From: a virus
Taxonomy: Duplodnaviria > Caudoviricetes
Strand: one strand, 5' to 3'
DNA: 64,000 nucleotides
IMG/VR virus record: IMGVR_UViG_3300048503_000021
Location: 32,254-96,253 of that record
Shown here: positions 53,708 through 61,322 of the stretch, in pieces
How positions within the stretch are numbered: the first letter of the stretch is position 1
How the letters are laid out: the number at the start of each line of letters is the position of its first letter
Translations under genes and position numbers: made by a program
Notes under the pieces: model-generated
Told to the model about the DNA's origin: nothing
Database searches by the model: none
What the model saw: the letters and a program-made list of their open reading frames with translations, nothing else

Positions 53708-53811
53708 GCACAATTACGAAGGCTCTCCCCGATCTGTCCCGCACCCAGGCTGCGCTTGCGGCTTATGATGAGTTCGACAACAAAGCCGCATTCGAGGGGG
53801 TGACCACTCCG

Positions 53812-54957
53812 TCAGCTAAAGCAGACGGCTTCTCGCGAAACGCTTGGGTACAAACTCCCTACGTTGACTCGCGAAGGCAGAGTCCCTGCCCTTTGGAGGA
53901 TGACTTGAGAACTAACGAGATCCCGAGATCCAGACAATCCGCACTTGGGGCACGAGTGCCAGCGGTTGTTCAGCCGCTTTGGCACAGTCGCTCCGCATGT
54001 GCATGTTTGGCTCGTACCGCTCGGGTTCACAGCTACCATCTCTCGCCCAGCACTTGCAGCCTTGTACGAAAGGAACTGGTAAAACATGCCCCAACCGGCG
54101 TCGTGAACGGACTTCGCCAGCATACCGCCAGAAAGCCCCTTCACGTTCAGATCTTCGACTGCGATCAGACCAAACTTGTTGACAATCTTCCGAGACTCTT
54201 TGTGCAGGAAGTCGGCCCTCTGGTTGGAGATATGCGTGTGAACGATCTGCAACTCTTGCACGGCCTTCCTGCGCCGGTTGCTTCCCTTGCGACGTCTGGC
54301 AACCTTCCGTTGCGACCGTCTCAGTTTTGCCTGAGACTTCCTGTAGTAGCGCGGGTTTTCAATCTCCGTCCCGTCCGACAGGACGGCAAACGTCGTCAAT
54401 CCGACATCGATCCCAACGGATTCAGAGGAATCGGGGATAGGGCAAGGATCACACTCGACCGCGAAGCAGACGTACCACTTCCCGGATTGGCGCTTCAACG
54501 TCACCGTCTTAATGCGTCCCTCAATCGGGCGATGCAGTTTGACCTTGAGGAGTCCGGCCCCTTGTATGCGGAGCTTCCCATCGTCTATCAACCTGCAACC
54601 ATCTCCGTAGGAGGGGAAGGTAATGCTGTCAAAACGCTGGAACGGCTTGAACCGGGGGAAGCCAGTTTTCTTTCCTTCCCTCAGGCGACGGAAGAAGGCT
54701 TGGTATGCCTTGTCCACGCGGCGAAGGACATCCTGGCAGCAAGAGAAGTTGGCAAGTTTAACCAATCCCTCCGCCCGCATGGCCTTCAGTTGGTTGGCTT
54801 GGTCGTAGTAGTTGATCGACTTCCGGCACGTCTTCCAGGCCCCGCGCCGCTCTTCAATGGCGCAATTGTAGAGATCACACGCCTCGTTCAGTTGCCAGTT
54901 AAAGAACGCAACTTGGACTCTGGTTGGATAAACCCGATATTTGAACGAACTGAGCAT
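53812..54957 (-). CDS. tnpB: RNA-guided endonuclease TnpB (copy 1)
   Basis: FKYRVYP, GFPRFK, RuvC-I GIDVGL, RuvC-II VEDL, TSQTC..CG…CPKCG, RuvC-III RD. Confidence 0.95.
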   Translation of the reverse strand: MLSSFKYRVYPTRVQVAFFNWQLNEACDLYNCAIEERRGAWKTCRKSINYYDQANQLKAMRAEGLVKLANFSCCQDVLRRVDKAYQAFFRRLREGKKTGFPRFKPFQRFDSITFPSYGDGCRLIDDGKLRIQGAGLLKVKLHRPIEGRIKTVTLKRQSGKWYVCFAVECDPCPIPDSSESVGIDVGLTTFAVLSDGTEIENPRYYRKSQAKLRRSQRKVARRRKGSNRRRKAVQELQIVHTHISNQRADFLHKESRKIVNKFGLIAVEDLNVKGLSGGMLAKSVHDAGWGMFYQFLSYKAASAGREMVAVNPSGTSQTCTCGATVPKRLNNRWHSCPKCGLSGSRDLVSSQVILQRAGTLPSRVNVGSLYPSVSREAVCFS

Positions 54958-54958
54958 A

Positions 54959-55099
54959 TTACTTCAAGCCGAAGTAAAGAGCGAGTCTCCGAAGGGCCAT
55001 CTCAATCACCGACGCTTGGCTCAAGCCGAGCTTCTCGGACAGCAGGGACAGAAGGCGGTGGGCCTCTTCGCTCAGGCGGAATGACGTTGGATTCTTCAC
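54959..55099 (-). CDS. 46-aa ribbon-helix-helix (CopG/Arc-like) protein
   Basis: MKNPTSFRLSEEAHRLLSLLSEKLGLSQASVIEMALRRLALYFGLK; stop 1 nt before the tnpB ATG. Below the ORF-track size cutoff. Confidence 0.8.
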   Translation of the reverse strand: MKNPTSFRLSEEAHRLLSLLSEKLGLSQASVIEMALRRLALYFGLK

Positions 55100-55105
55100 A
55101 CCTCA

Positions 55106-55134
55106 ATCGTAGTCCTCTATGCGCTACTAGTCAA
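55106..55134 (-). promoter_or_regulatory. leaderless promoter of RHH-tnpB 1
   Basis: TTGACT-17-TACGAT, 6 nt before the GTG. Confidence 0.7.
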
Positions 55135-55283
55135 GCAAGAAAGGAGCGCGCATTCCTCCGTCGCCTAAAGGCGACGGTCCCCTGCGCTTAATCTATGGAC
55201 ACCTGCAAACGGTGCGTGAGGCCCGGCCAGTTCGTGCGCGAGGCGGTTGCCCGATGGGAACAGCGCAAGGCGGAGGGTCAACC

Positions 55284-55541
55284 ATGACGCAAGAACAAGG
55301 CGAGCGGTTGGCGGTCGGGGAGATCGTGCAGATCAACCCAGAGATGGATATTAACCCCATGTTCGGGGCTTGCTTGCTTGTCGTCACCGAACTGAAGTCG
55401 TGGGGTGTTATGGGATACGTCCAGGGCTTAGGCAGTGACGGCAAGATCGGGGGCCAAGCCTACATCCGGTTGCCCTTCGATCAGATCGAGAAAACCAACG
55501 GGATGGCCGTTTGGGCTATCGGGGACGAGCCGGAAGGCTGA
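55284..55541 (+). CDS. conserved phage protein (SH3-like)
   Basis: GEIVQINP…FGACL.VVTE.KSWGVMGYV…QAYIRL. Confidence 0.75.
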   Translation: MTQEQGERLAVGEIVQINPEMDINPMFGACLLVVTELKSWGVMGYVQGLGSDGKIGGQAYIRLPFDQIEKTNGMAVWAIGDEPEG

Positions 55542-55603
55542 GGGGGAAGTATGGCCGAAACAAAAGAGGATTGGGTGGCGATGATTCAGGGAGTATTGGC
55601 CCA

Positions 55604-55825
55604 TTGAAATACGAACCCGAAGGTCGGCAGATTCCCTATCAAGTGCGGCTGCAAACCCAGGCAATGGAGGAGGCGGCTCGAAGGACGATGGCGGCATTAC
55701 TGACCGCCGAAGCGAAGCGCAGGCGCAAAGCGGAGCGGTGGGCGCGGGTGGGCTGGGCGCTGTCGCTGATGGAGTTCCTGGCGCTGGCGGGGCTGGTCTG
55801 TGGGTTGTGGAAGGGGTGGTTCTAA
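55604..55825 (+). CDS. small membrane protein
   Basis: GGAG RBS before a TTG start; C-terminal TM segment. Confidence 0.5.
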   Translation: MKYEPEGRQIPYQVRLQTQAMEEAARRTMAALLTAEAKRRRKAERWARVGWALSLMEFLALAGLVCGLWKGWF

Positions 55826-56394
55826 TGGGCACTTATACCGACGTTTGTTCTGTCCTGAAACCAGCCAAGCGTGGATCTGCCGAGATCAGGATCGACACCC
55901 CATCCGGCTTTGAACGGTTAAGCGGAGCACTCCACGGCCAGCCCCTCGACCGAGAGAAGTATGCGCGGCTGCTGATTAACGGGCGCGTCATGATGACCGA
56001 CGCCGAGTTTGAGCGCCTCACGAACCTTGAATTTGTCTGCAAGGCGCATGGGGATATTCTCATTGCCGGTCTTGGTATCGGCATGATCCTCAAGCCTGCC
56101 CTAAAGAATGGGGAGAGCGTTACGGTAGTGGAGATCAATCCCGACGTGATCGCCCTCGTTGCCCCATCGTTCGATGATCCGAAACTGCGGATCGTCTCGG
56201 GCGACATAGACTCCTGGTTGCCGGAAGCGGGGCAACGCTTCGACGCCATCTACTTCGACATTTGGGAGCATTTCAACGAAGAAACGAACGCCCACGCCAC
56301 AAAACTGGGCCGGAGATTCTGTAAGTATCTGAAACCGGGCGGGTGGATGGGGTCTTGGACGCGGGCGGCTTGGAAGGCCACCAACAGGCGGTAA
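55825..56394 (+). CDS. spermidine-synthase-like SAM-dependent methyltransferase
   Basis: GDILIAGLGIG…VTVVEINPDVI…GD…FDAIYFDIW. Confidence 0.85.
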   Translation: MGTYTDVCSVLKPAKRGSAEIRIDTPSGFERLSGALHGQPLDREKYARLLINGRVMMTDAEFERLTNLEFVCKAHGDILIAGLGIGMILKPALKNGESVTVVEINPDVIALVAPSFDDPKLRIVSGDIDSWLPEAGQRFDAIYFDIWEHFNEETNAHATKLGRRFCKYLKPGGWMGSWTRAAWKATNRR

Positions 56395-56405
56395 GGGAGG
56401 ATTGC

Positions 56406-56690
56406 ATGGTAAAACAGCAAACGATATGTGACCGATGCGGGCAGGAAAAGAAGGGCGCGAATCACTGGTGGGAGGTGTACGGTTCGCCAGTTATTCCCGA
56501 CGCGCTAGTGATAAGACCTGCGGGGCCATCGACAGCACAGCCGGGGGCCGTAGAGGTGCTGGGCGCACCAGGGGACTTCTGCTCCCAAGTGTGCGCCCTG
56601 CGAGCCATCGACGAATGGATGTCAAAGCAGATTGCAGAGGCGAAGGCGGAAGAGAAACTGTCGCAGGAAGCGGCTGAAGCCAATGCTTAA
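56406..56690 (+). CDS. zinc-finger protein
   Basis: CDRCG…NHWW…CSQVC; GGAGG RBS. Confidence 0.7.
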   Translation: MVKQQTICDRCGQEKKGANHWWEVYGSPVIPDALVIRPAGPSTAQPGAVEVLGAPGDFCSQVCALRAIDEWMSKQIAEAKAEEKLSQEAAEANA

Positions 56691-56943
56691 CAAGTCTGAG
56701 CGCATCCGCCAACTGCTTCTGGCGGGCGAGTTGGGGCCGCTCGAAATAGGGGTAATCGTCGGCACAACAGCAGCGACCGTTCGCTCTGTCAGACAGCGCA
56801 TGAAACGTCCGCAGGCCATCTCTGACGTGAACGCAAGGATTGAATCCCTACGGATCGAAATGCGCCTATTGCAGCGCGATGTCTCTGCTATCAGAAGCGA
56901 CATTACGGCCATTTTCCAGAAGCTAAGGAAGACACGCCACTGA
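56683..56943 (+). CDS. small HTH plus coiled-coil protein
   Basis: KSERIRQLL…EIG..VGTT.ATVRSVR. Confidence 0.6.
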   Translation: MLNKSERIRQLLLAGELGPLEIGVIVGTTAATVRSVRQRMKRPQAISDVNARIESLRIEMRLLQRDVSAIRSDITAIFQKLRKTRH

Positions 56944-57020
56944 TGCGCCACGCGCCGGTTCAAGCGCCCCGGTAGCCTACTCACCACTAACCCACTGGTT
57001 CAGCCCTGGTCCCGTCTACT

Positions 57021-57096
57021 TGGCGAGTCGTCCAACTGGTTAAGATGCTTGACTTTGACTCAAGAGATGTAGGTTCAAGTCCTGCCTCGCCAGCCA
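57021..57096 (+). tRNA. tRNA-Gln (anticodon TTG)
   Basis: Acceptor stem TGGCGAG/CTCGCCA, anticodon arm CTTGA-CTTTGAC-TCAAG, T-loop GTTCAAGT, encoded CCA. Confidence 0.92.
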
Positions 57097-57284
57097 ACCT
57101 AAATCGCCCCGGTTCCACGCGCCCCGGTCGCCCCGCCCTGGTCGCGCCGGTTGACGCTCAGCGGGCGGCGCTGGCGGCGGGCCGGAATCTACGCTTCCCA
57201 AAACTTTCCTCTTGACAGGCCGCTATGCAAGGTGTAACGTGGGTCTATGCCACAAAGAACAGGCAGAAATGGAGGCAAATAGCC

Positions 57285-57491
57285 GTGTTGCATCTGTTAG
57301 AGGAACTGACGCCCTACCAAGAGGGGCGGCTGATGGCGGATCTGACCCGCAAGGGATACACGTCCGAAACCGTCAACGGATATACTCCCGGCACGCTGGA
57401 GTATCAGGAATTCAACCGAGGGGTGTACGACGACGCGCAAGCGGAAGCGCACAAGGCGGCGGCGGGCATGGGCGTGGGGGTGACGGCGTGA
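57285..57491 (+). CDS. hypothetical protein
   Basis: GGAGG RBS; downstream of promoter TTGACA(57212)-17-TAACGT. Confidence 0.55.
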   Translation: MLHLLEELTPYQEGRLMADLTRKGYTSETVNGYTPGTLEYQEFNRGVYDDAQAEAHKAAAGMGVGVTA

Positions 57492-57709
57492 CGCGCATAT
57501 CTTCAGCCAGTCCGGTACGCCGGGAAACCGACGTTCACTACCGGGGTAGGGCGTTGGTGGTGGAGCTTCACCCTGGCTTTTTGACCCTCAAAGAGAAGGG
57601 CAAGCGGTACAGGGTGAGCGTGGGCTACGACGCCATTCTCTCGCTGGGTTTCAAACTGTTAGCGCGGGCCGAAGCCGCAGAGAAGAAGAGCAAAGGAGGC
57701 AAGCGATGA
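57488..57709 (+). CDS. small basic protein
   Basis: GTGA overlap with the upstream gene; RALVVELHP…L.LKEKG.R. Confidence 0.65.
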   Translation: MTRISSASPVRRETDVHYRGRALVVELHPGFLTLKEKGKRYRVSVGYDAILSLGFKLLARAEAAEKKSKGGKR

Positions 57710-57763
57710 TCCGTTTCCCGTCGCTGACAAGCGACCAGCACGCGTGATGTATCGCCTTTGACT

Positions 57764-58906
57764 TCAGCGACTTCCAAGGCCATGCAGAGCAATCTCCACA
57801 TTACGGCCTTCAGGTGGCATCCCCACCTGTCCACGGGCAAGGATGACTTGCGCCGCAGCGTGATCTCTATGCGCGGTGTACCCGCAGGGGCAGACGTGCT
57901 GCCGCTGGCTTAGGATCTTTTTCGCTACGGCCCCACAAGAGGGACACGTTTGAGAAGTGTACGCCGCATTAACTTCGACTACCTCAACCCCGGCCCATTC
58001 TGCCTTGGATTTAAGGATATTCAGGAAGCTGCCCCAGCCAGCGTCCAGAACAGCGCGGGCAAGCCGGTGATTCTTGGACATCCCAGAGATGTTCAAGCTC
58101 TCCACCGCGATCAACCCGTACTTGTCTACCAACTTTCGAGCAATCTTATGATGCTGGTCGCACCTGTAGTTTGCAACCGAGGCGTGTGTGGCAATGACAG
58201 CACGCCGAGCGTTGCGTCGTCCTCTACCGCCCTTATTCCTTCGATCCATGCGCCTCTGCTGGACTCGCAGTTTGCGGAGCTTCCACTTGAGCGGCTGGAG
58301 GGGCGCTATGTGCTCTCCATCCGAAGTTGTCAGGAAGCTCTCGATTCCCAAGTCAATCCCGACGGCGGCAGTATTTTTATTTTCAACTGCCACTTCGCCA
58401 AGATCGCAGACAATCACGACATACCACTTCCCGGCTTCGCGCTTTACCGTGATCGTCTTGTGCTTTCCTTCAGTGGGACGGTGCAGCCGCACGCGGACCA
58501 ACCCGACGTGCTGCAAGCGAAGTTTATTCCCGATCAGCCTAACACCGTGCGGCACTTGGGGGTAGGTAAAGCTATCGAATCGGTCTCTGCTCTTAAACCT
58601 CGGGTATCCGGGCTTTTCTCCGGCCTTACAACGCCTAAAAAAAGCAGCAAAGGTGGTATCCAGACGGTTCATCGTGGCCTGAGCGCTTTGCGCGTTGAGA
58701 CGCGCAAACCAAGGATTGATTTTATTCTCCCTTGCGAACCATTTGGCTTGATCGCGGTACTTGATCGACTTCTTTTCGATTTCGTAGGCCGTTTTTCGCT
58801 GTGCAAGGCACTGGTTATAGAGACGCCTGTGTGTCTCCAGCGTGATCTCCAACTCCCGCGTCTGGTTGACGTTAGGATAGAGGCGGTACTTGTACGCTTT
58901 GTACAT
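57764..58906 (-). CDS. tnpB: RNA-guided endonuclease TnpB (copy 2)
   Basis: YKYRLYP, GYPRFKS, GIDLG, VESL, TSQTCPSCG…CPCG…HRD; RuvC triad intact. Confidence 0.95.
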   Translation of the reverse strand: MYKAYKYRLYPNVNQTRELEITLETHRRLYNQCLAQRKTAYEIEKKSIKYRDQAKWFARENKINPWFARLNAQSAQATMNRLDTTFAAFFRRCKAGEKPGYPRFKSRDRFDSFTYPQVPHGVRLIGNKLRLQHVGLVRVRLHRPTEGKHKTITVKREAGKWYVVIVCDLGEVAVENKNTAAVGIDLGIESFLTTSDGEHIAPLQPLKWKLRKLRVQQRRMDRRNKGGRGRRNARRAVIATHASVANYRCDQHHKIARKLVDKYGLIAVESLNISGMSKNHRLARAVLDAGWGSFLNILKSKAEWAGVEVVEVNAAYTSQTCPSCGAVAKKILSQRQHVCPCGYTAHRDHAAAQVILARGQVGMPPEGRNVEIALHGLGSR

Positions 58907-59048
58907 CTGCCTTCACGTTGTAGCGTTCGGCCAGCAACCGCACGGCCATCTCAATCACAGAGGCTTGGCTCAAGCCTAGTTTCTCGCCAAGCACCACGAG
59001 GAGCCGCAGGCAGTTCTCACTCAGGCGGAATGCGGTTGGCTTCTTCAT
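58872..59048 (-). CDS. 58-aa ribbon-helix-helix protein, paralogue of 54959-55099
   Basis: MKKPTAFRLSENCLRLLVVLGEKLGLSQASVIEMAVRLLAERYNVK…; overlaps the tnpB start. Confidence 0.8.
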   Translation of the reverse strand: MKKPTAFRLSENCLRLLVVLGEKLGLSQASVIEMAVRLLAERYNVKADVQSVQVPPLS

Positions 59049-59054
59049 ATCTCA

Positions 59055-59083
59055 ATAGTAACGCAAATCGCGTTACTTGTAAA
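59055..59083 (-). promoter_or_regulatory. leaderless promoter with palindromic operator
   Basis: TTTACA-17-TACTAT, 6 nt before the ATG; inverted repeat AGTAACGC-N5-GCGTTACT (59057-59077). Confidence 0.7.
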
Positions 59084-59115
59084 CAACCTAAGCCAAGCCC
59101 GCGCCGGTTCACGCA

Positions 59116-59145
59116 GAAAGCCCCGGTCACTGATCGGGGCTTTTT
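59116..59145. terminator. intrinsic terminator
   Basis: AAAGCCCCG…CGGGGCTTTTT. Confidence 0.75.
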
Positions 59146-59622: not shown

Positions 59623-59798
59623 TATCGCCCGCGCCTCTGCCACTCGCCTAGCCAGCCACACGCGCCGCAGAGCAAGGCAAACGCGCCCGCCAGCAGGATC
59701 GCGCCGTGTAGCCCGTCAGGGCGGCCAGCGCAAGCCCAGAGAACGGCCACCGCGCCCGCAATGGCCACGTAAGCATAAGCCTTCGAGTTATGAAGCAC
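59622..59798 (-). CDS. 58-aa two-TM membrane protein
   Basis: GGAGG RBS, GTG start, MLHNSKAYAYVAIAGAVAVLW…; not in the ORF track. Confidence 0.55.
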   Translation of the reverse strand: MLHNSKAYAYVAIAGAVAVLWACAGRPDGLHGAILLAGAFALLCGACGWLGEWQRRGR

Positions 59799-60108
59799 TG
59801 GACGCCTCCGACCTATAGGCCCACGATTGCCGCGCTATCTCGCTCAACTGTTCCCACGTTTTGCGGGGTGCGCCGTCGTGATAGTAGGGTTGTCTTCGCA
59901 CGTCTGCTTCATAGTCGGCCCGCCCGCACTCGGGAAGCCCCGTTGCAATTGCGGCAGTGATCTGGTTATGAGCGTCCTCAGCGGAAACCTTCAGGGCTTC
60001 GACAAGTGGGAACGTCCCGTAATTGAAAACAAAGGTCCGCGTCTCGCCGCGAAAGGTGGTTTTCACTAAGCGCGTTTCCATGTCAATCTCGGTCAGGTAT
60101 TTTAGCAT
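59788..60108 (-). CDS. hypothetical protein
   Basis: Own GGAGG RBS before MLKYLTE; P.YHDG.PRKTW.QL…SW motif. Confidence 0.6.
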   Translation of the reverse strand: MLKYLTEIDMETRLVKTTFRGETRTFVFNYGTFPLVEALKVSAEDAHNQITAAIATGLPECGRADYEADVRRQPYYHDGAPRKTWEQLSEIARQSWAYRSEASSAS

Positions 60109-60119
60109 CGGACCTCCAA

Positions 60120-61322
60120 ACGCTTTGAGTGGGCTAGACTTGGGACTAGCCCCATGCGCGTTAGATCGGGCCGCAAGGCCCGATCCCCTCCGCTTAGCAA
60201 GGCCCGCCAGTGTGTCACCAGCGGAGCGAGAGCCGTCAGCATCCCACGCATCAAGCGTGGCAGTCCCGAAGCCTGCCGGAAGTTCCAGGCGTTTAACCAG
60301 CCGGGAAAGAATCTCCCCACGGGTGGGCGATTCTTGCGGGAATGGCGTGTTGTAGGCATCCCCGAAGGCCAGCACGAACGGGACAACGGCATCGAGCGCC
60401 GTGCGGATGGCAGAGCGGAACTTTGCCGCCGCTTCCCCAACGTGCATGATGCTGATTTCCTGGTCCATCCCCTCACCCCATGCTGTTGTGAAGTTGAGGC
60501 AGAGGACGCGGAGAATCTTGGGGACAATGCGGATGCTGGATTGTTTCGTCTGGGAGTTGGCGACGTGCAGGGCGACCAGGGCAATGTCCCCCACTTTCAA
60601 CTCACGGGCCATCGTCGGCCAGATCACCTCTACGTCGCTCCGTGATTCGGTTTGGGTGAAACGGACCTTTGCCCCTGCTGGCAGAACAGCGTCTAAGCCG
60701 GTCAGAAGGTCGTGGTCTTCAACTCCGGTGTAACGGTTGGAGACTACGGCATTCAAGGACCGCCGCAGGATAACGCCATTAGCGCTCGCTTGCGGGGTCA
60801 AAACGGTGCGGAGTACCGCTTCGCGCTGTTCGGAGTTGTAGGCATTCTCCGCGCAGTAGTTGAAGGCATCTGCGCGGATAGCCGGGGGCAGAGCTAACAG
60901 GGTGGAAGCGAACCCGCCCGAAACGCTGGCAGGCTTCACGAACGATGCGGCCTGATTGAAAGCCGTTGCGGTGTAGGCGAGTGGGGTCTTGTTCGGGTCG
61001 CAGTTGCGGCCATGGATTCCGCCATTGTCGGCCCTCATGCGGAGGTCGTAGATTTGAACTTGGGTGTCAATCGGCCGCTGTTCGGTGCGGATGGCTCGCA
61101 GTGTAGCCGCAGCCGTCGCCACGTCGGGAAGCGCGGCTATCTCTTCTTTGAGTTCCCCGCGCCCGCTGTTCTCCGTAGGGAATCAGCGACTCGCCTTCCG
61201 GTACGATGGTATTGGGGAGCCTTATCCCCGTGGTAGCCGAAAGCTGCTTGAGGGTTTCCATGCGAGTTGTGAAGTCGGCCCCCGCGACGGAGCCGGAAAA
61301 CGTGCTAGTCAAAGTGGAACAT
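60120..61322 (-). pseudogene. DUF932-like protein, frameshifted
   Basis: AVVSNRY…NS…SI…LRVLCLN…H.G motif. Two apparent +1 insertions near the 5' end; the 3' end reads through into the next gene. Confidence 0.6.

What the first reader, a model, noticed from the sequence alone, without database searches (positions are those of the whole stretch)
53800..59083. Two TnpB cassettes in which a small RHH protein occupies the TnpA position, each on a leaderless promoter
Seen: both tnpB genes have an intact RuvC D/E/D triad. Each is directly preceded by a 46- or 58-aa ORF absent from the ORF track, and the two share K.PT.FRLSE…RLL..L.EKLGLSQASVIEMA.R.LA, a CopG/Arc ribbon-helix-helix pattern. Both have -35/17/-10 promoters ending exactly 6 nt before the start codon, so the mRNA would be leaderless. 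An inverted repeat fills the spacer: perfect AGTAACGC-N5-GCGTTACT in copy 2, degenerate GTAG…CTAC in copy 1. No tnpA is present in the window. The two TnpBs are clearly divergent, so the architecture is conserved rather than a recent duplication. Inference: an autoregulated RHH-TnpB module (toxin-antitoxin-like or nuclease dosage control) with possible cross-regulation between the copies, perhaps used against competing phages.
Basis: partly seen in the sequence, partly recalled or inferred. Interest (0 to 1): 0.75.

Follow-up and report, generated by a model that had tools for sequence, protein, structure and literature searches.

The report
Repressor-controlled TnpB cassettes in a phage
A 96-kb phage carries two old, divergent copies of a transposase-less IS605-type element in which a tiny CopG/Arc-like repressor gene sits where the transposase gene normally is. 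It most likely switches off the promoter it shares with the RNA-guided nuclease TnpB; this arrangement was noted in 2023 and shown experimentally in a 2026 preprint, so this is a clear new example and not a new principle.

Summary
Two intact tnpB genes (42% identical, RuvC D/E/D and zinc-finger Cys conserved) are each preceded by a small RHH ORF (46 and 58 aa, 67% identical). Each ORF follows a sigma-70-like promoter whose -10 box ends 6 nt before the start codon, with a palindrome in the spacer.

Comparative data make this more than chance:
- At least 12 homologous RHH loci keep the same layout: -35, 7-nt half-site, N5, 7-nt half-site running into the -10, then 6-7 nt to the start codon.
- Most overlap the start of the next gene (ATGA or GTGA).
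- That next gene is usually a selfish nuclease: TnpB, GIY-YIG or HNH.

Copy 1 keeps IS605-type left- and right-end hairpins homologous to those of relatives that carry a Y1 TnpA in the same slot. None of 19 other phage TnpB loci has the RHH.

[quoted passage not shown] This scan has also reported similar Arc-TnpB cassettes on other DNA several times.

Best reading: an autorepressed, probably leaderless RHH-tnpB operon of a non-autonomous IS605 derivative. Toxin-antitoxin and anti-phage readings have no support here. Verdict: new member of a known kind, moderate to low interest.

The parts
55158..55186 (-). Copy 1 left-end (LE) region: conserved motif CGCAGGGGACC followed by the hairpin CCGTCGCC-TTTA-GGCGACGG (55158-55177)
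   Evidence: Homologous to the LE of the TnpA-bearing relatives L014 and L011 and of the RHH-bearing L062. Predicted fold energy -15.9 kcal/mol. Resembles the right-end hairpin of the same element.
55106..55134 (-). Copy 1 promoter TTGACT-17-TACGAT with the imperfect palindrome GTAGCGC-N5-GGACTAC (55109-55127) filling the spacer and running into the -10
   Evidence: Promoter scan. The same layout is seen in at least 12 RHH homologue loci.
54959..55099 (-). RHH1: 46-aa CopG/Arc-like ribbon-helix-helix ORF with a GTG start 6 nt after the -10; its stop lies 1 nt before the tnpB1 ATG
53812..54957 (-). tnpB1: 381 aa, with intact RuvC D/E/D triad and zinc-finger Cys
53800..53980 (-). Copy 1 putative omegaRNA scaffold and right end (RE). 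The hairpin GCCGTCTGC-TTTA-GCTGACGG is followed by AGTGGTCAC and similarity ends at 53800. The predicted guide is the next ~20 nt (53780-53799).
   Evidence: The RE motif is nearly identical to that of L011 and L010. The consensus structure has compensatory changes at 20 of 32 pairs.
59055..59083 (-). Copy 2 promoter TTTACA-17-TACTAT with the perfect palindrome AGTAACGC-N5-GCGTTACT (59057-59077)
   Evidence: Near-identical operators occur in L035, L062 and L063.
58872..59048 (-). RHH2: 58 aa. The first 46 residues are the RHH fold. The 12-aa low-confidence tail results from loss of the ancestral stop codon, and the ORF overlaps tnpB2 by 35 nt.
57764..58906 (-). tnpB2: 380 aa, with intact RuvC D/E/D triad and zinc-finger Cys
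57744..57924 (-). Copy 2 putative omegaRNA scaffold and degenerate RE, ending in ...GATACATCAC at 57744. The predicted guide is 57724-57743.
   Evidence: weaker hairpin, -7.9 kcal/mol.
59115..59145 (.). GC-rich hairpin (GCCCCG...CGGGGC) with T runs on both strands, just upstream of the copy 2 promoter. It looks like a bidirectional terminator. No IS605-type LE hairpin is recognisable in copy 2.

Best explanation
Each cassette is a non-autonomous IS605-family element. The Y1 transposase gene behind the left-end promoter has been replaced by a 46-aa CopG/Arc-like ribbon-helix-helix gene.

Proposed mechanism (inferred unless marked otherwise):
1. Transcription starts at or next to the RHH start codon, giving a leaderless mRNA.
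2. The RHH is translated first.
3. tnpB is translated by coupling to the RHH stop. In copy 1 the stop lies 1 nt before the tnpB ATG; in copy 2 the ORFs overlap.
4. RHH dimers bind the palindrome GTAnCGC-N5-GCGnTAC. This fills the -35/-10 spacer and overlaps the -10, so binding shuts off the operon's own promoter.
5. The result is a short, self-limiting pulse of RHH and a small coupled amount of TnpB.

With an omegaRNA made from its 3' end and the right end, TnpB is an RNA-guided nuclease. Its expected role is selfish retention or homing of the cassette. With no TnpA in the phage, any spread would need a TnpA supplied in trans or homing during co-infection.

Shown here: the sequence architecture and its conservation across homologues. 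Shown elsewhere for related elements (Moon et al. 2026): promoter binding and repression. Inferred: the leaderless start, RHH binding to these particular sites, translational coupling, and TnpB and omegaRNA activity.
For: 1. The RHH is a real, constrained protein. The two copies are 67% identical while their TnpBs are 42% identical. pN/pS is 0.19-0.50. A profile search hits CopG. The AlphaFold model shows an extended N-terminus plus two helices, and the top Foldseek rows are CopG, CdbA, CopA_SO and Arc.
2. The promoter-operator-start layout is conserved in 12 or more homologous loci, whatever the downstream gene is.
3. ATGA, GTGA or 1-nt junctions to the downstream gene occur in nearly all loci.
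4. Copy 1 has LE and RE hairpins homologous to those of TnpA-bearing relatives. In those relatives tnpA occupies the same slot, abuts tnpB, and also starts 7 nt after a -10 box.
5. The TnpB catalytic residues are invariant, and the 3' region and RE show a conserved structure with compensatory changes.
6. Published ChIP-seq, reporter and mutational data show that IS605-encoded Arc proteins bind the element's promoter and repress tnpB expression, including in arc+tnpB-only elements.
7. The half-site sequence tracks beta-strand residue 8: Arg goes with GTAnCGC, Thr with ATACCAC, Lys with GTATAG. The sample is small and the loci are not phylogenetically independent.
Against: - No binding, transcript-start or expression data exist for this phage.
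- RHH1 starts with GTG, which is a poor leaderless start codon in some bacteria.
- The TnpA-bearing relatives L011 and L014 also have palindromic promoter spacers without any RHH gene, so a palindrome alone does not prove an RHH operator.
- One homologue (L063) has a normal Shine-Dalgarno leader.
- Homology to the specific Arc clade tested by Moon et al. could not be checked. Their DNA-contact residues (N5, N7, T9) differ from those here.
- Copy 2 lacks a recognisable LE hairpin and has a degenerate RE.
- No empty site or second identical copy was found, so mobility or homing is not shown.
Confidence: 0.75

Rival explanations
1. Toxin-antitoxin-like or inhibitor model: the RHH binds TnpB or the TnpB-omegaRNA complex directly and blocks it. 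This was proposed for the archaeal RHH/MazE-TnpB clade.
For: Altae-Tran et al. 2023 co-folded an RHH with a rearranged TnpB and proposed a TA system. Moon et al. mention a proposed Arc-TnpB-omegaRNA interaction. The tight RHH-tnpB coupling seen here is compatible with a stoichiometric partner.
Against: - The RHH is only the 46-aa DNA-binding fold, without the C-terminal toxin-binding extension typical of RHH antitoxins.
- The same RHH family, with the same promoter and operator, precedes GIY-YIG, HNH, secreted-protein and coiled-coil genes. A TnpB-specific protein contact is therefore unlikely to be its conserved role.
- TnpB here keeps the canonical RuvC-III Asp, unlike the archaeal clade where it is His.
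- The closest TnpB relatives function without any RHH.
Confidence: 0.08
2. Domesticated phage function: the cassettes are immobile and kept because they benefit the phage. Examples would be RNA-guided cutting of competing phages or of host DNA, or the RHH acting as a phage regulator.
For: Both cassettes sit at the same positions in every sampled copy of this widespread phage; 24 contigs were read out of 137-150 index blocks. Copy 2 has lost a recognisable LE. Both TnpBs remain intact despite 42% divergence.
Against: The predicted guides are simply the adjacent phage flank, as in any IS605 element. They match nothing else in the phage and nothing in IMG/VR. Copy 1 still has typical LE and RE hairpins. 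Both cassettes lie antisense to the neighbouring + strand genes (those on both sides of copy 1, those downstream of copy 2), as selfish insertions often do.
Confidence: 0.12
3. The small ORFs are not expressed, and the palindromes are only IS left-end DNA structure (single-strand hairpins used in transposition).
For: TnpA-bearing relatives also have palindromic promoter spacers. The RHH Pfam hits are below threshold.
Against: Purifying selection acts on the ORF. The protein is conserved at 50-85% identity across unrelated contexts, including non-IS contexts. There are 2115 representative clusters at E<=0.001. The fold is RHH-like.
Confidence: 0.03

Closest known systems
Arc-containing IS605-family elements (Moon, Zedaveinyte, Wiegand & Sternberg, bioRxiv 10.64898/2026.09.24.754181; first noted in Zedaveinyte et al., bioRxiv 10.1101/2023.11.20.567912)
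   Same: A small RHH gene lies inside an IS605-type element next to tnpB. The palindromic binding site overlaps the element's promoter. Arc+tnpB-only elements exist. Arc homologues are also found next to homing endonucleases. Some are under 50 aa and unannotated.
   Different: - The published examples mostly have arc with tnpA on one strand and tnpB on the other, around a bidirectional promoter. Here the RHH is co-directional with tnpB, lies exactly in the tnpA slot, and is translationally coupled to tnpB.
- The start is leaderless-type; that paper does not mention leaderless starts.
- The DNA-contact residues differ (N5/N7/T9 there).
- The setting is a phage with two divergent copies.
- Sequence homology to their clade was not tested.
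CopG (pMV158) and P22 Arc transcriptional repressors
   Same: Homodimeric RHH of about 45 aa. Best sequence and fold matches: 30-33% identity to CopG, profile E 0.006. Autorepression of a bicistronic operon through a pseudo-palindrome within the promoter (established knowledge for CopG).
   Different: CopG controls a plasmid replication operon and its site covers the -35. Here the site fills the spacer and overlaps the -10, and the controlled gene is a nuclease.
Canonical IS200/IS605 elements (tnpA-tnpB, e.g. ISDra2, IS608) and tnpB-only IS1341-type derivatives
   Same: TnpB with a RuvC DED triad and zinc finger. Subterminal LE and RE hairpins (copy 1). An omegaRNA region overlapping the tnpB 3' end. 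Upstream ORF and tnpB tightly abutted.
   Different: There is no Y1 TnpA anywhere in the phage; an RHH gene takes its place. No multiple identical copies were found.
Archaeal RHH/MazE-TnpB (Altae-Tran et al., PNAS 2023, PMC10691335)
   Same: A small RHH gene lies directly upstream of tnpB, with no transposase.
   Different: That clade is archaeal, has a rearranged RuvC-III (Asp to His), and is interpreted as a TA system. Here the triad is canonical and the IS ends are retained.
Free-standing phage homing endonuclease genes (GIY-YIG, HNH)
   Same: Members of this RHH family, with the same promoter, operator and ATGA coupling, sit directly upstream of GIY-YIG and HNH endonuclease genes in other phages. 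The TnpB cassettes here are inserted antisense to the neighbouring + strand phage genes (both sides of copy 1, the downstream side of copy 2), as such genes often are.
   Different: The nuclease here is RNA-guided. Homing is not shown for these copies.

Membership tests
Arc-containing IS605-family elements | Small RHH (Arc-like) gene encoded inside the IS boundaries | tested here: met
   Copy 1: the RHH lies between an LE hairpin (55158-55177) homologous to the LEs of L014, L011 and L062, and an RE ending at 53800. Copy 2: the RE is present but degenerate and the LE is not recognisable.
Arc-containing IS605-family elements | Adjacent IS605-type tnpB | tested here: met
   Pfam OrfB_IS605 and Cas12f1-like_TNB. 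PDB hits to ISDra2 TnpB, E 1.6e-48.
Arc-containing IS605-family elements | RHH binding motif overlapping the native promoter | tested here: inconclusive
   A conserved palindrome lies in the spacer and -10 in at least 12 homologous loci. Actual binding cannot be tested with these tools.
Arc-containing IS605-family elements | RHH represses transcription of tnpB | not testable with these tools
   Needs reporter, ChIP or EMSA assays. Shown for other homologues by Moon et al..
Arc-containing IS605-family elements | Sequence homology to the published Arc clade (WP_094548610.1, WP_003367503.1) | not tested
Ribbon-helix-helix (CopG/Arc/MetJ) superfamily | N-terminal beta-strand followed by two helices, about 45 aa | tested here: met
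   AlphaFold model: residues 1-10 extended, helices at 11-24 and 28-42, pLDDT 94-96 over residues 11-40. The best Foldseek rows are CopG, CdbA, CopA_SO and Arc, with weak E-values as expected for 45 aa.
Ribbon-helix-helix (CopG/Arc/MetJ) superfamily | Significant sequence-model match | tested here: inconclusive
   Pfam RHH_1 scores 18.3 bits against a cut-off of 20.5, and RHH_3 scores 17.4 and 16.4 against 21.6. The family profile hits CopG with E 0.006.
IS200/IS605 autonomous element | Y1 (HUH) TnpA transposase | tested here: not met
   No PF01797 match at E<=1 in the whole 96-kb phage record.
IS200/IS605 family (non-autonomous derivative) | TnpB with RuvC D/E/D triad and C4 zinc finger | tested here: met
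   D185, E269, D348, C321, C324, C339 and C341 are invariant in A7.
IS200/IS605 family (non-autonomous derivative) | Evidence of recent mobility (identical copies, empty sites) | tested here: not met
   There are only two copies, 42% identical. Both are fixed in every sampled copy of the phage. No empty site was found.
Archaeal RHH/MazE-TnpB (putative TA) | Rearranged RuvC-III (Asp to His) | tested here: not met
   The RuvC-III Asp is conserved in both copies. The feature is defined in PMC10691335.
Type II toxin-antitoxin (RHH antitoxin) | Antitoxin with a C-terminal toxin-binding extension beyond the RHH fold | tested here: not met
   RHH1 and most homologues end at residue 46, right after helix 2. 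The 12-aa tail of RHH2 comes from stop-codon loss and has low confidence.

The most novel reading that the evidence does not exclude
The CopG-like RHH, together with its operator-bearing leaderless promoter and ATGA coupling, is a portable 5' control module shared by three unrelated classes of selfish nuclease genes: TnpB, GIY-YIG and HNH. In this IS605 lineage it was swapped in for tnpA by recombination at the LE promoter and at the tnpA/tnpB junction. That swap would convert a transposon into a phage-borne RNA-guided homing-endonuclease gene, which spreads by homing between co-infecting phages instead of by transposition.
Probability: 0.3. Interest if true: 0.55.

Novelty: new member of a known kind. 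Interest (0 to 1): 0.33.

Why it matters
It adds a clean, comparatively well-supported phage example to the recently described Arc-regulated IS605 elements.

Details not in the published accounts I read:
- The RHH sits exactly in the tnpA slot, behind the same left-end promoter that drives a leaderless-type tnpA in sister elements.
- A fixed layout recurs: -35, half-site, N5, half-site running into the -10, then 6-7 nt to the start codon, with ATGA coupling to the next gene.
- The same control module precedes TnpB, GIY-YIG and HNH nucleases.

These details give concrete operator sequences and predicted guides for experiments. They also support the view that phage TnpB genes behave like homing-endonuclease genes. 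None of this changes the known principle.

Tried and rejected
- Empty-site search. Exact searches of IMG/VR for the two predicted guides and flanks found nothing. Relatives of the flanking gene 55284-55541 are only about 50% identical and not syntenic. All contigs carrying the exact RHH2 or flanking protein are the same phage with both cassettes. Sister phages found through the methyltransferase (66% identity) are syntenic around it, but the contigs end or diverge before either insertion site. The exact LE boundary and the TAM could therefore not be determined.
- Self-targeting. Neither guide matches anywhere else in the phage with up to 4 mismatches.
- Rfam has no omegaRNA family hit in the region.
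Nothing can be concluded from that.
- A search of 400 genomes of the class of the Gallionella hit found the RHH family in only 3, two of them weak. The family is rare in cellular genomes of that class.
- The word-indexed protein search found only 3 RHH relatives. The full HMM search was needed to see the family, which has 2115 representatives.
- I considered that the RHH might be a degenerate remnant of TnpA. I rejected this: the fold is different (RHH vs HUH), and the family is independently conserved in non-IS contexts.

Full report
**What is there**

The window is part of a 96,253-bp IMG/VR phage record that CheckV rates 96% complete. Two tnpB genes lie on the minus strand:
- tnpB1, 53812-54957, 381 aa.
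- tnpB2, 57764-58906, 380 aa.

Both have the Pfam OrfB_IS605 and Cas12f1-like_TNB domains. They are 42% identical to each other and match ISDra2 TnpB structures at E 1.6e-48. In a 9-sequence alignment the RuvC residues D185, E269 and D348 and four zinc-finger Cys are invariant, in both window copies included.

Each tnpB is preceded by a small ORF:
- RHH1, 54959-55099, GTG start, 46 aa. Its stop lies 1 nt before the tnpB1 ATG.
- RHH2, 58872-59048, ATG start, 58 aa. It overlaps tnpB2 by 35 nt.

The two are 67% identical over 46 residues. The DNA alignment shows that the RHH/tnpB junction has the same geometry in both copies. The longer RHH2 results from loss of the stop codon that copy 1 and L062 retain.

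The promoter scan found TTGACT-17-TACGAT (55134-55106) and TTTACA-17-TACTAT (59083-59055). In each, the -10 ends 6 nt before the start codon. The spacer holds AGTAACGC-N5-GCGTTACT in copy 2 and GTAGCGC-N5-GGACTAC in copy 1. No Y1 transposase is detectable anywhere in the phage.

**Is the small ORF a real RHH protein?**

Individual Pfam RHH hits are below threshold. Other evidence supports the assignment:
- A profile of eight homologues hits the CopG repressor (E 0.006, residues 1-36).
- The AlphaFold model has an extended N-terminus and two confident helices at 11-24 and 28-42.
- The best Foldseek rows are almost all RHH proteins: CopG at 30-33% identity, CdbA, CopA_SO and Arc.
- Between homologues, synonymous changes exceed non-synonymous ones, with pN/pS of 0.19-0.50.
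- A full HMM search finds 2115 representative clusters at E<=0.001 and 243 at E<=1e-10.

**Comparative evidence for the control region**

RHH homologues were collected from several sources:
- genomes (L005-L007);
- IMG/VR (L008, L009);
- metagenomes (L031-L040);
- protein look-ups (L062, L063, L069-L073).

When aligned on the start codon, at least 12 loci share one layout:
1. a -35 hexamer;
2. 1-2 nt;
3. a 7-nt half-site;
4. 5 nt;
5. an inverted 7-nt half-site whose last three bases (TAC or TAT) begin the -10 hexamer;
6. 6-7 nt;
7. the start codon.

The common consensus is GTAnCGC-N5-GCGnTAC. The half-site sequence tracks beta-strand residue 8: Arg goes with GTAnCGC, Thr with ATACCAC and Lys with GTATAG. 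This sample is small and not phylogenetically independent. One homologue (L063, on a conjugative-plasmid-like contig) has an ordinary Shine-Dalgarno leader.

The RHH stop overlaps or abuts the next gene's start in nearly all loci, as ATGA, GTGA or a 1-3 nt gap. The leaderless-type promoter, the operator in the spacer and the translational coupling are thus family properties and not chance.

**What the RHH is coupled to**

Among RHH loci with a readable downstream gene:

| Downstream gene | Loci |
|---|---|
| TnpB or TnpB-like | both window copies; L062 (71% identical to TnpB2); L033 (frameshifted); L005 (weakly TnpB/TranC-like, 508 aa) |
| GIY-YIG endonuclease | L006; L008/L009; L034 (weak); L039 |
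| HNH endonuclease | L070; L071 |
| Other, or none on the same strand | L031 (coiled-coil); L035 (secreted protein); L063 (secreted protein); L069 (no co-directional downstream gene) |

About three quarters therefore precede a selfish nuclease gene.

The reverse does not hold. None of 19 other phage loci encoding relatives of TnpB1 or TnpB2 (33-65% identity) has this RHH. I read the upstream region of nine of them:
- Six (L011, L014, L015, L022, L025, L026) carry a complete Y1 TnpA there, abutting tnpB. L011 and L015 are the same element.
- L012 has only a truncated tnpA remnant.
- L010 (65% identical to TnpB2) has a small zinc-ribbon ORF in that slot.
- L024 has neither.

**The cassettes are IS605 derivatives**

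Upstream of the copy 1 promoter lies CGCAGGGGACC followed by the hairpin CCGTCGCC-TTTA-GGCGACGG and GGAGGAATGC. This region is homologous to the left ends of the TnpA-bearing L014 and L011 and of the RHH-bearing L062.

The 3' end of tnpB1 runs into GCCGTCTGC-TTTA-GCTGACGG-AGTGGTCAC. This is nearly identical to the right ends of L011 and L010. Similarity stops at 53800 in copy 1 and at 57744 in copy 2.

The last ~180 nt before the right end fold into a shared structure with compensatory changes at 20 of 32 pairs. Part of this region is coding sequence, so the count should be read with care.

In L014 and L011 the tnpA start codon also lies 7 nt after a -10 box. The leaderless-type left-end promoter therefore appears to be ancestral, and the RHH gene took over the tnpA position.

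Copy 2 has a degenerate right-end hairpin and no recognisable left-end hairpin. A terminator-like hairpin at 59115-59145 and a copy of the phage's dispersed 14-bp motif lie just upstream of it. L062 is mosaic: its RHH and TnpB are closest to copy 2, but its left end is closest to copy 1.

**Status in the phage**

Every contig read that encodes the exact RHH2 or the flanking 85-aa protein is the same phage with both cassettes in place (24 contigs read for each, from 150 and 137 index blocks). The predicted guides, which are the 20 nt beyond each right end, match nothing else in the phage or in IMG/VR. No empty site could be found. Mobility or homing is therefore not shown, and the exact left boundary and TAM remain undetermined.

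**Comparison with the literature**

- Zedaveinyte et al. (bioRxiv 10.1101/2023.11.20.567912) reported Arc-like RHH ORFs associated with TnpB, homing endonucleases, other mobile elements and TA systems.
- Moon, Zedaveinyte, Wiegand and Sternberg (bioRxiv 10.64898/2026.09.24.754181, Oct 2026) used ChIP-seq, reporters and mutagenesis. They showed that IS605-encoded Arc binds the element's promoter and represses tnpB expression. Their set included arc+tnpB-only elements, and they noted unannotated Arc genes of 50 aa or fewer. They do not mention leaderless starts.
- Altae-Tran et al. (PMC10691335) described an archaeal RHH/MazE-TnpB clade with a rearranged RuvC-III and proposed a TA system. The canonical Asp is kept here, so that membership fails.

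This scan has also reported similar Arc-TnpB cassettes on other DNA, several of them in phages.

**Verdict**

The finding is real and its architecture is strongly conserved, but it is a new member of a known kind. The most likely mechanism is autorepression of a leaderless-type, translationally coupled RHH-tnpB operon in a transposase-less IS605 derivative (confidence about 0.75).

The TA-like, anti-competitor and 'ORF not expressed' readings are weaker. Cross-regulation between the two copies is plausible but untested.

The incremental points are three:
- the exact replacement of tnpA;
- the fixed promoter-operator-start layout;
- the sharing of this control module among TnpB, GIY-YIG and HNH genes.

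The last point fits a homing-endonuclease-like lifestyle for phage TnpB.

Noticed in passing
window 60134-60193 (-): Rfam Twister-P5 ribozyme match at 44.5 bits (gathering 37.6, E 7.5e-7, full-length model). It lies inside the 444-aa minus-strand ORF 59788-61122.
   Followed up: no
L010:2354-2500 (+): In the phage locus whose TnpB is 65% identical to TnpB2, the tnpA slot holds a 42-48 aa CxxC...C zinc-ribbon-like ORF abutting tnpB. Upstream is TTGACA-17-CATACT, with a GTG 6 nt after the -10. This is a second kind of small protein replacing TnpA.
   Followed up: partly
window 55195 region; L062:2104; L011 ~1983; L014 ~2003: In four independent insertions the IS left end lies only 8-11 nt from the ATG of a divergently transcribed flanking gene (CCAT on the element strand). 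This could reflect target or TAM preference, or selection on where insertions survive. It is unexplained.
   Followed up: no
L011:~2050-2099 and L014:~2050-2102: tnpA of the TnpA-bearing sister elements also starts 7 nt after a -10 box (leaderless-type). The promoter spacer is palindromic (TATATAC...GTATATA) even though no RHH gene is present.
   Followed up: no
L033:571-1904: This RHH-TnpB element has an ATGA overlap and its tnpB is interrupted by a frameshift after about 55 codons. It is either a pseudogene or an assembly error.
   Followed up: partly
window 57021-57096 (+): A tRNA-Gln (anticodon TTG) gene lies between the two cassettes.
   Followed up: no
   Followed up: no
L005:3138-4664 (+): In a Gallionella MAG, a 508-aa protein with no Pfam hit is coupled to an RHH homologue by an ATGA overlap. 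It has only weak similarity to TnpB1 (25% identity) and to LaTranC. It may be a divergent TnpB/TranC-like nuclease.
   Followed up: partly
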